DNA from: Escherichia coli
GTDB lineage: Bacteria > Pseudomonadota > Gammaproteobacteria > Enterobacterales > Enterobacteriaceae
Assembly: GCF_003018235.1 (NCBI RefSeq)
Contig: NZ_CP027437.1
Reading direction: 5' to 3' (one strand)
DNA: 64,000 nucleotides
Positions within the stretch are counted from its first letter, which is position 1, and every line of letters starts with the position of its first letter. The translations under genes and the position numbers were made by a program. Below the pieces are notes generated by a model, which did no database searches, was not told where the DNA came from, and saw only the letters and a program-made list of their open reading frames with translations. Below are positions 1,033 through 4,340 of the stretch, one piece after another.

Positions 1033-1062
1033 TGCGACGCTGACGCGTCTTATCATGCCTAC
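1027..1062. repeat. REP (repetitive extragenic palindrome) immediately 3' of ybbJ
   Basis: gcctgatgcgacgctgacgcgtcttatcatgcctac matches the E. coli REP consensus (GCCTGATGCGACGC...CTTATCAGGCCTAC). Confidence 0.7.
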
Positions 1063-1136
1063 AAAAATATGCCCGAATCGTAGGCCGCCTCCGCTATATT
1101 AACTGGCATTGGCAAATTACTCGTCACTACCTTTAT

Positions 1137-1478
1137 TCATGTTTTTGGGTCTTCATCCGGATAATGTTTTTTTAGATATTCCAGGACGTTTTTATTGACC
1201 TTGTGTTGCGTATACACCCACCCTTTCCAGTAATCAGGCTGGTCCAGGTAAACTTCTGGCGGAATGGTGAAATCAGAAAGCGTTAACCATTCGGCTAACA
1301 GATCGGGGTTTCGTTTCTGGATTAACTGCAACAGCATAATCAGTGACATAGCTGAGGCAGGAGCCGTACTATCACCACTCAAATATTTCCACACTGTTGA
1401 CCGGTTCGAACGAAAAAGGATCGGTAGCAATGCCCGGTCCAGATTCATTTCATTAAAAATCTTCTCAAATTCATTCAT
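1137..1478 (-). CDS. Small XRE-family helix-turn-helix DNA-binding protein (113 aa), candidate regulator of the adjacent adhesin island
   Basis: ATG-initiated 113-aa ORF; residues about 22-50 (RSNRSTVWKYLSGDSTAPASAMSLIMLL) fit the XRE/Cro HTH pattern; divergent from the TAA-like gene across an AT-rich 350-bp spacer. Confidence 0.6.
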   Translation of the reverse strand: MNEFEKIFNEMNLDRALLPILFRSNRSTVWKYLSGDSTAPASAMSLIMLLQLIQKRNPDLLAEWLTLSDFTIPPEVYLDQPDYWKGWVYTQHKVNKNVLEYLKKHYPDEDPKT

Positions 1479-1844
1479 TTAAATTTTCCTGCCTGGCGTA
1501 AACCTCTTAAAAATTGAGATTTATCAAAGAAACGCATTTTAGCACACATCAGGAACCGCTTCACGTTTAGTCCAGAAACAGAATTTATTTCGCTTATCAA
1601 AACAAGTCTTTACTCTTTTTTACATTGAAAGAGCACAAAATGATTTTCTATTTTATTTATATAAGAAACATTTTTTGTTTCTTATTGGTGATGTTTACGC
1701 TTACACCAGACAAAAATGCGCTTTACATCACACAAATGGCGGCGTAGATTTCGATCAAATTGCAACGCAGATTAATTCTTATAACAACGTTTTACGTTGC
1801 TTATAGAAACAAATATGTGACTTACTTTGAAAGAGAAAAAATGC

Positions 1845-3629
1845 ATGAAAACTGTAAAGCTGTCTTTACTGGCTGTCGTTGTTGCTACCGCGGTAAGTCC
1901 ATCTGCGTTTGCGGGTGATACTGTTGAGGCGGCAACGACAGAATTAACGGCAATCCAGCCAGGAATGTCGCAATCGGAAATTGATCAGAAAATTGGTCGA
2001 TTTTTAGAAAGGACAGGGAATAGTGCAGCCGCACAAAATTATCTGATTGCGCATGATTACCGGACAACGACACCTCAGGAAAATACAGCTGCCTCTCCCG
2101 TACAGCCCGCCAATACGCTGAACCCGATAACCAATCAAGCGCAGACCGACCGCGACAACGGGCAGGATACCGCCATTCAGGACGCACAACATGCCGCCAA
2201 CTGGGCTTCAATGAAAGCTGATGACGCGCAGCACGCCATTATGGTGGCGCAGACGGATATTGATGCCAATAAAGCCGCCATCGCCGACACCCGTAATGAT
2301 GTCTCCGCAGTGCAGTCAGACGTCACCAACATAAAAGGCGATGTCGCACATGCCCAGTCAACGGCTGACCATGCCAACGCTAACGCCAACACCGCTCTGA
2401 TGAACGGCGTCAAACTTTCCGGTGCTGTGACAGAAAACAAAAATAATATCGAACAGAACCGCAGCGATATTGCTGACCAGCAGAAACTGTTGGCATCAAA
2501 CGAGCAAAAACAGACCGACCGCGACAACGGGCAGGATACCGCCATTCAGGACGCGCAACATGCCGCCAACTGGGCTTCACTGAAAGCTGATGACGCGCAG
2601 CACGCCATTATGGTGGCGCAGACGGATATTGATGCCAATAAAGCCGCCATCGCCGACACCCGTAATGATGTCTCCGCAGTGCAGTCAGACGTCACCAACA
2701 TAAAAGGCGATGTCGCACATGCCCAGTCAACGGCTGACCATGCCAACGCTAACGCCAACACCGCTCTGATTAACGGCGTCAAACTTTCCGGTGCTGTGAC
2801 AGAAAACAAAAATAATATCGAACAGAACCGCAGCGATATTGCTGACCAACAGCAACAACTCGACGAAACCCGGAAAATCGTTGCCGCCACCGGGGATGTG
2901 CAGACTGCCGCCCGATATCAGAGCATGATTGACGCCAGACAGACAGCCGCTGCCAATGCGCAACAGGCACAAGCTGACACCCAGCAGCAACAAATGGACG
3001 ATCAGCAGAAACAAATCGACGCGACGCAAAAAACGGTTTCCGCACTTGGCGATGCCCAGACCAACGCACATTATCAAGAGATGGTTAACGCCGGACTGAG
3101 AGCACAAAATGATGCGAATGCGCGTACTGCAGCAGAACAAAAACAAAAAATAGATACTCTGGCGACTAACCAGGCAACACAACAGCATATCGATAGTGTG
3201 CAGTACGGGGAACAAATTCAGCGTCTGGCGCAAGACTCAACGCAAACGCATGAACAAATTGACAGCCTGACACAAGACGTAAACCAAACGCATCAGCAGT
3301 TAAGCAACACGCAAAAACGAGTAGCGGATAATAGCCAGCAGATTACTACGCTCAATAACCATTTCAGTTCGCTGAAAAACGAAGTTGAGGACAACCGTAA
3401 AGAAGCCAATGCGGGAACTGCATCAGCCATCGCTATCGCCTCACAACCACAGGTGAAAGCCGGTGACTTTATGATGGTGTCAGCGGGAGCGGGAACCTTC
3501 AACGGTGAATCTGCGGTGTCTGTCGGAACATCTTTTAATGCCGGAACGCATACCGTGATTAAAGCCGGTGTCTCTGCGGATACGCAATCTGATTTCGGCG
3601 CGGGTGTCGGCGTGGGATATTCTTTCTAA
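1845..3629 (+). CDS. Trimeric autotransporter adhesin-like protein (YadA-type C-terminal anchor, coiled-coil stalk); ORF track starts at TTG 1827, ATG at 1845 preferred
   Basis: Signal peptide MKTVKLSLLAVVVATAVSPSAFA; long Q/A/D/N-rich coiled-coil passenger; C-terminal about 70 aa (AGTASAIAIASQPQ...GVGVGYSF) fits the four-strand YadA membrane-anchor pattern with a terminal aromatic residue. Confidence 0.75.
   Translation: MKTVKLSLLAVVVATAVSPSAFAGDTVEAATTELTAIQPGMSQSEIDQKIGRFLERTGNSAAAQNYLIAHDYRTTTPQENTAASPVQPANTLNPITNQAQTDRDNGQDTAIQDAQHAANWASMKADDAQHAIMVAQTDIDANKAAIADTRNDVSAVQSDVTNIKGDVAHAQSTADHANANANTALMNGVKLSGAVTENKNNIEQNRSDIADQQKLLASNEQKQTDRDNGQDTAIQDAQHAANWASLKADDAQHAIMVAQTDIDANKAAIADTRNDVSAVQSDVTNIKGDVAHAQSTADHANANANTALINGVKLSGAVTENKNNIEQNRSDIADQQQQLDETRKIVAATGDVQTAARYQSMIDARQTAAANAQQAQADTQQQQMDDQQKQIDATQKTVSALGDAQTNAHYQEMVNAGLRAQNDANARTAAEQKQKIDTLATNQATQQHIDSVQYGEQIQRLAQDSTQTHEQIDSLTQDVNQTHQQLSNTQKRVADNSQQITTLNNHFSSLKNEVEDNRKEANAGTASAIAIASQPQVKAGDFMMVSAGAGTFNGESAVSVGTSFNAGTHTVIKAGVSADTQSDFGAGVGVGYSF
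2142..2849 (+). repeat. Direct tandem duplication inside the TAA-like gene: two approximately 340-bp near-identical copies with a 369-bp (123-codon) period
   Basis: Copy 1 from 2142 and copy 2 from 2511 are identical except for about three substitutions (M/L, M/I, one silent); both encode QTDRDNGQDTAIQDAQHAANWAS...NRSDIADQQ. Confidence 0.9.
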
Positions 3630-3714
3630 TATTCCAATCCTCAATATAAATAAGAGCATGGAAGCTTGCCGGGTTTCACCGCTTTATTAACTCGCACATT
3701 ATTTAAGGTTAACA

Positions 3715-4137
3715 ATGATGTATAGCTCCATTAAATCGTTTTCCCTGCTGGCGGTTATATTACTGGCTGGCTGTAGCTCTCCCACTTCCCGCATCGCAGA
3801 TTGCCAGGCGCAGGGCGTCAGTCATGACACCTGTTATCTCGCAGAACAACAGCGTCAGGCGGCTATTTTAAGTGCATCAGAAGCGCAGGCATTTAAAAAT
3901 GCAGAAGCCGCACAACATGCCCAGGCCGCTAAAAAATCTATTTATAAAGGATTTGGTGTAACTTTTAGAATGAGCAGTAAAAACTTTGCTTATCTCAATG
4001 ATTCATTATGTGCCATAGATGAAGATAATGCCGATGCCACGGTTTATCAGTCGGGTCTGTATAACGTCATTGTTTATCATCACACAGGAAAAGTCGCCTT
4101 AATGAAGGAAGGTCAGTTTGTGGGTTATTTAAAATGA
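3715..4137 (+). CDS. Predicted lipoprotein (140 aa), unknown function
   Basis: Lipobox LLAGC followed by SS; four Cys in the mature part; 85 bp downstream of the TAA-like gene on the same strand. Confidence 0.6.
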   Translation: MMYSSIKSFSLLAVILLAGCSSPTSRIADCQAQGVSHDTCYLAEQQRQAAILSASEAQAFKNAEAAQHAQAAKKSIYKGFGVTFRMSSKNFAYLNDSLCAIDEDNADATVYQSGLYNVIVYHHTGKVALMKEGQFVGYLK

Positions 4138-4337
4138 AGGAGCAAAGGAAAATCCCCCTGACGCATATTATGATTATCGGTGCGTTTATTTTTGCCTTCT
4201 TGCAAGTAGTATTATTAGCCTCCCTGGTTCACGCTGTGAATGTTAACAACGAAATCCAGGAAGGCTTATTTCAATCGGGGCGCATAATGGTAGAAAGTTT
4301 GCAGCATATTCTTTCGGTGCAAACGGGGATTAACTGA
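4134..4337 (+). CDS. Small single-pass membrane protein (67 aa), hypothetical
   Basis: ATG overlaps the lipoprotein stop (ATGA), suggesting translational coupling; one hydrophobic helix (IMIIGAFIFAFLQVVLLASLV). Confidence 0.35.
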   Translation: MKEQRKIPLTHIMIIGAFIFAFLQVVLLASLVHAVNVNNEIQEGLFQSGRIMVESLQHILSVQTGIN

Positions 4338-4340
4338 TTT

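What the first reader, a model, noticed from the sequence alone, without database searches (positions are those of the whole stretch)
1033..4340. Small accessory island between ybbJ and cueR: XRE regulator, TAA-like adhesin, lipoprotein and mini membrane protein
In K-12 (from memory) ybbJ and cueR are adjacent and convergent. Here about 3.3 kb lies between them: a divergently transcribed 113-aa XRE-type regulator, a 600-aa protein with a YadA-like C-terminal anchor but a passenger that looks like pure coiled-coil stalk (no recognisable head repeats), and two tightly coupled downstream genes (lipoprotein, then a 67-aa one-helix protein with an ATGA overlap). The spacer 1479-1844 is strongly AT-rich. 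The three-gene arrangement is not a standard TAA locus and the two small partner proteins have no obvious family, so it may be a distinct surface module.
Basis: partly seen in the sequence, partly recalled or inferred. Interest (0 to 1): 0.65.

Follow-up and report, generated by a model that had tools for sequence, protein, structure and literature searches.

The report
Headless adhesin cassette, published as "GmrA"
The 3.3 kb between ybbJ and cueR is the known E. coli O-island 29, a small cassette shared by many enteric bacteria that encodes a regulator, a stalk-only surface fibre and a partner lipoprotein, and its fibre gene is the one published as the "transcription factor GmrA", which the sequence does not support.

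Summary
Window 1033-4340 holds four real genes:
- a 113-aa protein with an XRE-type fold, on the minus strand;
- a 594/600-aa trimeric autotransporter (TAA) whose only Pfam domain is YadA_anchor (E=3.7e-11);
- a 140-aa lipoprotein;
- a 67-aa one-helix protein that starts in an ATGA overlap with the lipoprotein stop.

K-12 has no bases between ybbJ and cueR. The lipoprotein-plus-small-gene segment of the island is in 1416 of 5426 complete E. coli genomes. The island is O-island 29 of EHEC EDL933.

The regulator/TAA/lipoprotein trio recurs in Pseudocitrobacter, Rahnella, Yersinia and Ewingella, at different chromosomal sites. The lipoprotein tracks the conserved TAA anchor, not the variable passenger. 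It is not related to the two known TAA helpers, SadB and TpgA.

Stalk length varies by 0 to about 5 copies of a 123-aa repeat.

My best reading is a self-regulated surface-fibre module with a new kind of dedicated lipoprotein partner. The helper role is inferred, not shown.

The parts
1027..1062 (.). REP-like palindromic repeat (GCCTGATGCGACGCTGACGCGTCTTATCATGCCTAC) that overlaps the ybbJ stop codon at the left edge of the island
   Evidence: Read from the sequence. The stretch matches elsewhere in E. coli genomes: hit H30 maps to window 1027-1063, and there are many multi-copy hits. The resemblance to the E. coli REP consensus is from my own knowledge. The same ybbJ end and the start of this repeat are also present where the junction carries a different cargo (L009).
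1137..1478 (-). [not shown]
1479..1844 (.). AT-rich divergent control region (32% G+C) with repeated AGAAAC half-sites at 1528, 1574, 1664, 1677 (-) and 1805, including a perfect palindrome ATAAGAAACA-N5-TGTTTCTTAT at 1661-1685. These are candidate operators of the HTH protein.
   Evidence: Composition. There are 5 AGAAAC copies against 0.25 expected (p=0.0005), and AGAAAC is the top 6-mer across seven Escherichia-type cassettes. Invariant blocks are seen in the cross-genus alignment. The operator role is an inference.
1845..3629 (+). [not shown]
   Evidence: ORF. It is 73% identical to the EDL933 'YadA family autotransporter adhesin'. The gmrA deletion primers flank exactly that CDS. Only YadA_anchor is significant in Pfam.
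1845..1913 (+). Sec signal peptide (MKTVK / LSLLAVVVATAV / SPSAFA, cleaved before G24)
   Evidence: Read from the translation: a basic n-region, a 12-residue hydrophobic core and an AxA cleavage motif. No signal-peptide predictor was available.
1914..2069 (+). N-terminal tip domain of about 50 aa. It is conserved between Escherichia and Pseudocitrobacter and is followed by a Pro-rich linker.
   Evidence: Alignment. All 5 prolines of residues 25-500 lie in residues 38-96. No relative in the PDB.
2129..2797 (+). Two tandem copies of a 369-nt (123-aa) coiled-coil unit. The copy number of this unit sets the stalk length.
   Evidence: Direct repeat 2129-2428 / 2498-2797, 97% identical, spaced 369 nt. 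Database alleles are 338, 459/471, 594-600, 702-717, 825 and 962 aa long. Heptad periodicity gives z of 2-3.5.
3447..3626 (+). YadA-type membrane anchor (four beta-strands per chain, ending in ...GYSF)
   Evidence: Pfam PF03895, model positions 1-60 of 60, E=3.7e-11. It matches the solved anchors of AtaA (E=5.9e-7), Hia (2.2e-6) and YadA (0.085). This is the only region conserved in all 21 cassette TAAs.
3715..4137 (+). [not shown]
4134..4337 (+). 67-aa protein with one membrane helix (basic N-terminus, helix at about residues 12-33, conserved ~34-aa C-terminal tail), translationally coupled to the lipoprotein gene
   Evidence: ATGA overlap in 7 of 7 loci. Codon-position differences 22/7/43. 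Cross-genus alignment. No family in Pfam, NCBIfam or PHROGs. It is found only in the Escherichia/Pseudocitrobacter branch. The N-in/C-out topology is inferred from the positive-inside rule.

Best explanation
This is O-island 29, one copy of a compact cassette spread among Enterobacterales that makes and controls a surface fibre.

The 113-aa XRE-fold protein probably binds the AGAAAC repeats in the AT-rich divergent region. Through them it would control its own gene and the rightward operon of TAA, lipoprotein and 67-aa gene. No terminator separates those three genes.

The TAA is exported by Sec and inserted by BAM through its YadA-type anchor. It would then display a trimeric coiled-coil stalk that has no head and carries only a ~50-aa tip domain. 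Stalk length is adjusted by gain or loss of a 123-aa repeat.

The lipoprotein is predicted to sit in the outer membrane, because residue +2 is Ser. I read it as a dedicated partner of the conserved C-terminal anchor region. It would help assemble or stabilise the anchor from the periplasmic side, as SadB and TpgA do for their TAAs, although it is unrelated to either. In Escherichia and Pseudocitrobacter a small inner-membrane protein is coupled to it.

The published activity of 'GmrA' as a cytoplasmic activator of fliA is hard to reconcile with this architecture. The reported motility effect is more likely indirect.

OI-29 and GmrA:

The regulator:
- The fold is XRE/Cro-type.
- The AGAAAC repeats are enriched and include a palindrome.

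The operon:
- No plus-strand terminator and no hairpin lie in the spacer.
- The ATGA overlap is conserved.

The module:
- Regulator, TAA and lipoprotein occur together in Escherichia spp., Pseudocitrobacter, eight Rahnella species, Yersinia aleksiciae and Ewingella, at different chromosomal sites.
- In 18 of 30 loci with a long lipoprotein ORF, a YadA-anchor ORF ends 47-355 nt upstream.

The lipoprotein tracks the anchor:
- In Rahnella woolbedingensis two tandem TAA-lipoprotein pairs have lipoproteins 94% identical.
- Their TAAs are alike only in the last ~150 aa (89%) and have unrelated passengers.
- Across 21 cassette TAAs only the C-terminal ~110 aa are conserved.

Literature:
- Only SadB and TpgA are known TAA helpers.
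- A 2026 survey that required a YadA head domain found no others.
Against: - No experiment or complex prediction links the lipoprotein to the TAA.
- Lipoprotein homologues occur without any TAA in 12 of 30 long-ORF loci (L005, L013, L015, L020-L023, L037 among them), so the link is not obligatory.
- The lipoprotein fold match is generic (Z no higher than 7.2).
- The published motility phenotype is complemented by the TAA gene alone and can be transferred to K-12. An outer-membrane fibre does not obviously explain that.
- The AGAAAC motif was noticed before it was tested, and it is absent from the Pseudocitrobacter L003 and Rahnella control regions.
Confidence: 0.6

Rival explanations
1. [not shown]
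For: PMC5826968 reports the following.
- Deleting gmrA lowers fliA, fliC and motA expression and motility.
- The gene alone complements the defect and raises motility in K-12.
- The protein shifts the fliA promoter in EMSA, and ChIP-qPCR shows enrichment at it.
- Deleting the orthologue in eight strains has the same effect.

The claim is repeated in reviews.
Against: - The deleted CDS is exactly the YadA-family TAA.
- It has a classical signal peptide and a full YadA anchor, and no DNA-binding Pfam domain.
- Its only weak hits are coiled-coil artefacts: TMF_DNA_bd at E=0.16, AAA_13, and Rad50/SMC. One database even names an orthologue 'Smc'.
- EMSA used an N-terminal His6 tag and ChIP used a C-terminal 3xFLAG tag. 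These sit on the signal peptide and on the C-terminal beta-signal, so the assayed protein was probably not in its native compartment (inference).
Confidence: 0.07
2. The lipoprotein and the 67-aa protein are an independent envelope pair that merely travels with the TAA. They could be a periplasmic inhibitor or protection factor of the MliC/PliC/ACP type, or a bridge between the two membranes.
For: - Homologues exist without a TAA in 12 of 30 loci.
- The two domains also occur separately, and the beta domain occurs as repeats in giant proteins.
Against: - The lipoprotein lies directly downstream of a TAA in 18 of 30 loci across at least five genera.
- It is duplicated together with the TAA anchor in L026.
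- No MliC Pfam hit was found.
- The fold match is generic for small 8-stranded barrels.
Confidence: 0.25
3. The TAA is an Eib/Saa-type factor of phage origin, whose job is immunoglobulin binding, serum resistance or autoaggregation. This concerns the passenger's function and does not exclude the best explanation.
For: - PHROG 17426 'adhesin' matches the C-terminal ~210-245 aa at E of about 1e-22.
- The probable Sakai orthologue ECs0548 was listed as 'Saa-like protein' (PMC2323221).
Against: - Phage genomes match only the anchor region, at 32-43% identity.
- There is no prophage context.
- No YadA-like head or neck is present.
- Deleting OI-29 did not change adherence in the cell assays.
Confidence: 0.15

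Closest known systems
[not shown]
   Same: It occupies the same chromosomal slot (ybbJ|cueR) with the same four genes in the same order. The HTH protein is 98% identical, the 67-aa protein 99% and the TAA 73%.
   Different: The window's TAA has two 123-aa stalk repeats where EDL933 has none (594 against 338 aa). The literature calls the TAA a transcription factor and does not mention the anchor, the signal peptide or the 67-aa gene.
SadA-SadB of Salmonella and E. coli (a TAA with a dedicated lipoprotein export factor)
   Same: A TAA is encoded in one operon with a small lipoprotein built as lipid anchor, polar helix and beta domain, and the whole unit is lost together in K-12.
   Different: There is no sequence or fold relationship. 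Residue +2 is Ser (outer membrane predicted), whereas SadB has Asp (inner membrane). The lipoprotein gene lies downstream, not upstream. This TAA has no head and is short, while SadA is a long multi-domain fibre.
AtaA-TpgA of Acinetobacter sp. Tol 5
   Same: A periplasmic partner is encoded next to the TAA and is thought to bind the anchor region. Here the lipoprotein likewise tracks the anchor rather than the passenger.
   Different: [quoted passage not shown] Neither was detected here.
YadA, Hia and AtaA anchors; the Eib and Saa TAAs of E. coli
   Same: The C-terminal four-strand anchor is homologous and is preceded by a coiled coil.
   Different: There is no YadA head, neck or stalk Pfam domain. 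The passenger is only a tip domain followed by coiled coil, and some relatives carry collagen repeats.
XRE/Cro-type small regulators (Aca2, HigA, MqsA C-terminal domain, C proteins of restriction-modification systems)
   Different: It falls below the threshold of every Pfam or NCBIfam HTH model. It has about 45 extra C-terminal helical residues. The family is narrow and confined to Enterobacterales.

Membership tests
Trimeric autotransporter adhesin (type Vc secretion) | C-terminal YadA-type anchor contributing 4 beta-strands per chain | tested here: met
   PF03895 matches positions 1-60 of 60 at E=3.7e-11. The region also matches the solved anchors of AtaA, Hia and YadA.
Trimeric autotransporter adhesin (type Vc secretion) | N-terminal Sec signal peptide | tested here: met
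   Judged by inspection only: MKTVK, then a 12-residue hydrophobic core, then AFA before G24. No predictor was available.
Trimeric autotransporter adhesin (type Vc secretion) | Coiled-coil stalk leading into the anchor | tested here: met
   Heptad periodicity gives z=6.2 at residues 473-528 and z=2-3.5 in the repeats. Residues 333-444 show no clear signal.
Trimeric autotransporter adhesin (type Vc secretion) | Head domain (YadA_head or another TAA head). This is common but not obligatory. | tested here: not met
   No head or stalk Pfam family is found in the window protein or in any of the 21 cassette TAAs.
Trimeric autotransporter adhesin (type Vc secretion) | Trimerisation and surface display | not testable with these tools
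   This needs fractionation, heat-modifiability and surface-labelling experiments.
SadB/YajI-type TAA helper lipoprotein | Homology to SadB or YajI in sequence or fold | tested here: not met
   [not shown]
SadB/YajI-type TAA helper lipoprotein | Inner-membrane retention signal (Asp at +2) | tested here: not met
   The mature protein starts Cys-Ser-Ser. SadB has Asp at +2.
SadB/YajI-type TAA helper lipoprotein | Encoded in one operon with a TAA | tested here: met
   The spacer is 85 nt with no terminator. The arrangement is syntenic in 18 of 30 loci. The gene order is reversed relative to sadBA.
SadB/YajI-type TAA helper lipoprotein | Improves surface display or integrity of its TAA | not testable with these tools
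   This needs a lipoprotein deletion or a co-expression experiment.
TpgA-type TAA partner | BamE-like domain and/or OmpA peptidoglycan-binding domain | tested here: not met
   [not shown]
XRE/Cro-type HTH regulator | Match to an HTH_3 or other XRE sequence model | tested here: not met
   The only Pfam hit is MqsA_antitoxin at E=0.11. NCBIfam gives nothing.
XRE/Cro-type HTH regulator | Lambda-repressor-like helical fold | tested here: met
   [not shown]
XRE/Cro-type HTH regulator | Sequence-specific DNA binding | not testable with these tools
   Only a candidate operator was found (AGAAAC repeats and a palindrome).
[not shown]
   Primer mapping and alignment.
[not shown]
   In the EDL933 protein only YadA_anchor is significant, and the weak hits are coiled-coil artefacts. 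A signal peptide and an outer-membrane anchor are present.

The most novel reading that the evidence does not exclude
The most novel reading has two parts.

First, the cassette would define a third, unrelated class of dedicated TAA partner: an outer-membrane lipoprotein with a helical hairpin and a beta-barrel, plus a small inner-membrane protein in one branch.

Second, and more radically, this TAA family would have a genuine second life in gene regulation. The E. coli protein is reported to raise fliA expression. Its Rahnella and Ewingella relatives carry a translated ~41-aa segment ahead of a normal signal peptide, and that segment resembles a helix-turn-helix. A fraction that is not exported, or a released presequence, could then couple fibre production to flagellar control.
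Probability: 0.07. Interest if true: 0.85.

Novelty: new variant of a known kind. Interest (0 to 1): 0.5.

Why it matters
There are three reasons.

1. Only two helper proteins for trimeric autotransporters are known, SadB and TpgA. A 2026 genome-wide survey found no more, but it considered only TAAs that have a head domain. A lipoprotein that follows a headless TAA across genera, and tracks its anchor, is a concrete and testable third candidate.

2. The gene widely cited as the horizontally acquired transcription factor GmrA is, by sequence, an outer-membrane fibre. The island's only protein with an HTH fold is the neighbouring gene. Either the published mechanism needs re-examination, or an autotransporter has an unexpected regulatory role.

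3. The island is in about a quarter of complete E. coli genomes, including O157:H7, and its stalk length is polymorphic. Both facts are relevant to typing surface antigens.

Tried and rejected
- **SadB/YajI, TpgA/BamE or OmpA relationship of the lipoprotein.** Rejected: no sequence hits and no fold hits.
- **TraV relationship.** NCBIfam TIGR02747 gave E=8.5e-4, well below its cut-off, and one source labels a homologue this way. The match covers only the lipobox and the Cys-rich N-terminus, so I did not pursue it as homology.
- **T5 Llp 'lytic conversion lipoprotein'.** The match is to the signal peptide only (E=0.69).
- **Spanin-like pair (outer-membrane lipoprotein plus N-in/C-out inner-membrane protein).** This is a topological analogy only. 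There are no PHROG hits and the 67-aa gene is missing from most cassettes.
- **Defence-system identity.** This was checked only for the alternative 407-aa cargo at the same junction and for the extra 588-aa Pseudocitrobacter gene. PADLOC and NCBIfam found nothing.
- **Close phage (Eib-type) origin of the TAA.** Rejected: only the anchor matches, at 32-43% identity.
- **HTH nature of the E. coli TAA tip domain.** No support.
- **Rahnella presequence.** It resembles FixJ/LuxR-type HTH only at non-significant levels (E about 1; Pfam E between 1e-3 and 0.1).
- **Terminator between the TAA and lipoprotein genes.** None found.
- **Literature searches** for the locus under TAA-related terms returned nothing beyond the GmrA papers and one 2007 table entry.
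Full report
**What is there**

The window is E. coli. Its qmcA-ybbJ flank is 99.6% identical to several E. coli chromosomes.

- a 113-aa gene on the minus strand (1137-1478);
- a 600-aa mechanical ORF (1827-3629), whose likely start is the ATG at 1845, giving 594 aa, as in the EDL933 annotation;
- a 140-aa lipoprotein gene (3715-4137);
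- a 67-aa gene (4134-4337) that starts in an ATGA overlap with the lipoprotein stop.

The divergent spacer 1479-1844 has 32% G+C, against 55-60% in the flanks.

In K-12 the two stop codons abut with no base between them. The last ~27 nt of ybbJ differ between K-12 and island-bearing strains. A REP-like repeat sits at 1027-1062.

The lipoprotein-plus-small-gene segment occurs in 1416 of 5426 complete E. coli genomes. It is always chromosomal and nearly always single-copy. Only 232 genomes match at least 80% of the whole island, because the adhesin gene varies in length.

**The adhesin**

Pfam finds one significant domain, YadA_anchor, over its full length (E=3.7e-11). No head or stalk family matches. 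The anchor also matches the solved anchors of AtaA, Hia and YadA.

The N-terminus reads as a classical signal peptide: MKTVK, a 12-residue hydrophobic core, then AFA before G24. After it comes a ~50-aa tip domain conserved between Escherichia and Pseudocitrobacter, followed by a Pro-rich linker.

The rest is rich in Ala, Gln, Asp, Thr and Asn. It shows heptad periodicity in residues 109-220, 249-332 and 445-528, with z up to 6.2. Residues 333-444 give no clear signal.

A 369-nt unit is duplicated in tandem at 97% identity. Database alleles of 338, 459/471, 594-600, 702-717, 825 and 962 aa correspond to roughly 0 to 5 copies of this 123-aa unit. Stalk length is therefore polymorphic.

**The island is already named, and its adhesin has been published as something else**

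EDL933 has the same four genes in the same slot, annotated as hypothetical protein, YadA family autotransporter adhesin, lipoprotein and hypothetical protein. This is O-island 29, described as 2,643 bp containing z0638, z0639 and z0640 (PMC5826968).

- the gmrA arms end at 4040 and begin at 5058, which flanks exactly the 338-aa YadA-family CDS (4041-5057);
- z0638 is the lipoprotein;
- z0640 is the small minus-strand gene.

The EDL933 protein has no DNA-binding Pfam domain. Apart from YadA_anchor, it has only weak coiled-coil artefacts: TMF_DNA_bd at E=0.16, AAA_13, and Rad50/SMC in NCBIfam. One database even names an orthologue "Smc". These are the likely source of the "putative DNA-binding domain" in that paper, but this is my inference because the figure is not held.

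The EMSA used an N-terminal His6 tag and the ChIP used a C-terminal 3xFLAG tag. Those tags sit on the signal peptide and on the terminal beta-signal (...GYSF). The assayed protein was therefore probably not in its native compartment (inference).

Later reviews repeat the transcription-factor assignment. A 2007 comparative paper lists ECs0548 in S-loop 43, absent from K-12, as "Saa-like protein". This is probably the same gene.

The reported phenotype is lower fliA and fliC expression and lower motility, complemented by the gene alone and transferable to K-12. I cannot explain it from the architecture and I flag it as unexplained.

**The small minus-strand gene**

In the divergent region, AGAAAC occurs 5 times against 0.25 expected. 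It is the top 6-mer across seven Escherichia-type cassettes. It forms a perfect palindrome, ATAAGAAACA-N5-TGTTTCTTAT, at 1661-1685, and several copies are invariant across genera. I propose these as operators. This is an inference, and the motif was noticed before it was tested.

**The lipoprotein and the 67-aa protein**

The lipoprotein has a lipobox (LLAGC) followed by Ser at +2, which by the Lol sorting rule predicts the outer membrane. It also has two further conserved cysteines.

Codon-position differences of 25/10/148 within Escherichia show purifying selection. The 67-aa gene gives 22/7/43, and its ATGA overlap is conserved in 7 of 7 loci. The small protein has a basic N-terminus, one hydrophobic helix and a conserved C-terminal tail.

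**The cassette elsewhere**

Lipoprotein homologues led to the same arrangement in Pseudocitrobacter faecalis. There it lies next to a serine recombinase and carries an extra 588-aa gene. The arrangement also appears in metagenomic enterobacteria, where the cassette sits between fetA and qmcA rather than between ybbJ and cueR, and in Enterobacter asburiae.

A scan of one genome per species found 47 loci. HMMs for the four proteins gave these counts:
- 18 of 30 long lipoprotein ORFs have a YadA-anchor ORF ending 47-355 nt upstream;
- 13 are full regulator/TAA/lipoprotein triads.

The triads are in Escherichia sp., E. whittamii, Pseudocitrobacter, eight Rahnella species, Yersinia aleksiciae and Ewingella. 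The 67-aa gene is confined to the Escherichia/Pseudocitrobacter branch.

All 21 cassette TAAs have YadA_anchor and no head domain. Only their last ~110 residues are conserved.

In Rahnella woolbedingensis the TAA-lipoprotein pair is duplicated in tandem. The two lipoproteins are 94% identical, while the two TAAs are alike only in the last ~150 aa (89%) and have unrelated passengers. The lipoprotein therefore follows the anchor, not the passenger.

Against a strict coupling, homologues occur without any TAA in 12 of the 30 loci. The N-terminal domain also exists alone as a 65-75-aa mini-lipoprotein in Buttiauxella, Aeromonas and others.

**Comparison with what is known**

Only two TAA helpers have been described, SadB and TpgA. 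A 2026 survey that required a YadA head domain found no others, and headless TAAs such as this one were outside its dataset.

[quoted passage not shown] The present lipoprotein is analogous in layout. It is not homologous, is predicted to be in the outer membrane, and lies downstream.

**Verdict**

The island itself is known (OI-29).

What appears new is the reading of it as a conserved, self-regulated module of a headless TAA with a dedicated, uncharacterised lipoprotein. Also new is the finding that the published "transcription factor GmrA" is the TAA.

I give about 0.6 to the overall module explanation. The identities are near certain. The helper role stands at roughly 0.4-0.5.

Noticed in passing
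L024, L025, L026 (869-2617), L027, L031, L036: the N-termini of the TAA genes: The Rahnella and Ewingella cassette TAAs carry a ~41-aa extension (MKAQxTERNxQIIxAYIAGNxNKxELARYFGVSASTIRRVL) in front of an otherwise normal signal peptide with a hydrophobic core and an AxA site. Codon-position differences of 126/78/332 show that the extension is translated. It resembles a helix-turn-helix only weakly (Pfam E between 1e-3 and 0.1; FixJ at E about 1) and does not hit the Pfam ESPR family. It may be a new kind of extended signal peptide region.
   Followed up: partly
L009 552-1775 and L010 584-1262 (E. coli strains FCI5 and AVS0282): The ybbJ|cueR junction has a third state. A different cargo, a single 407-aa hypothetical protein (WP_000492611.1), occupies it and is frameshifted in some strains. 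It shares the window-type ybbJ end and the start of the REP-like repeat. PADLOC and NCBIfam give no hit.
   Followed up: partly
window 4745-29753 (- strand): Directly beyond cueR lies a type I secretion system: a HlyD adaptor (4745-5920), an ABC permease/ATPase (5917-8079), and a giant Ig-like adhesin split into a 6892-aa ORF (8083-28761) and a 341-aa 'SiiEA' prefix ORF (28728-29753). K-12 keeps only a frameshifted HlyD fragment here.
   Followed up: partly
window 1027-1062: A REP-like palindromic repeat overlaps the ybbJ stop codon at the island's left edge. The last ~27 nt of ybbJ differ from K-12. In other genera ybbJ and cueR overlap by 4 nt (L006), so the abutting state looks ancestral.
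   Followed up: partly
L026 (Rahnella woolbedingensis) 869-5411: The TAA-lipoprotein pair is duplicated in tandem. The lipoproteins and the anchors are nearly identical, but the passengers are unrelated. This looks like passenger swapping on a constant anchor-plus-lipoprotein unit.
   Followed up: yes
L003 (Pseudocitrobacter faecalis) 3766-5532 and 8050-9936: An extra 588-aa gene with no family sits between the TAA and the lipoprotein. A large serine recombinase lies about 1.3 kb downstream of the cassette, which hints at how the cassette moves.
   Followed up: partly
P0313 (1212 aa) and P0314 (1400 aa); P0229, P0254, P0255, P0261: The two domains of the lipoprotein also exist separately. The Cys-hairpin N-domain occurs alone as 73-75-aa mini-lipoproteins. 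The beta domain occurs alone, or repeated 8-9 times in giant proteins.
   Followed up: no
L003 1801-3702, L004 4960-5841 and other cassette TAAs: Three of the 21 cassette TAAs contain collagen triple-helix (G-x-y) repeats in the passenger (Pfam Collagen, best E=1e-8). This is another trimeric fibre motif grafted onto the same anchor.
   Followed up: no
window 1137-1160 compared with L001 3312-3674: The window's HTH protein ends seven residues early (...DPKT, 113 aa). EDL933 and GF43 have 120 aa (...DQKSMSKGREE in EDL933, ...DQKNMNKGSDE in GF43).
   Followed up: no
L006, L011, L012, L017 compared with the window: In Pseudocitrobacter-like genomes the same cassette lies between fetA and qmcA, two genes away from the Escherichia slot (ybbJ|cueR). 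So it uses the same neighbourhood but a different insertion point.
   Followed up: partly
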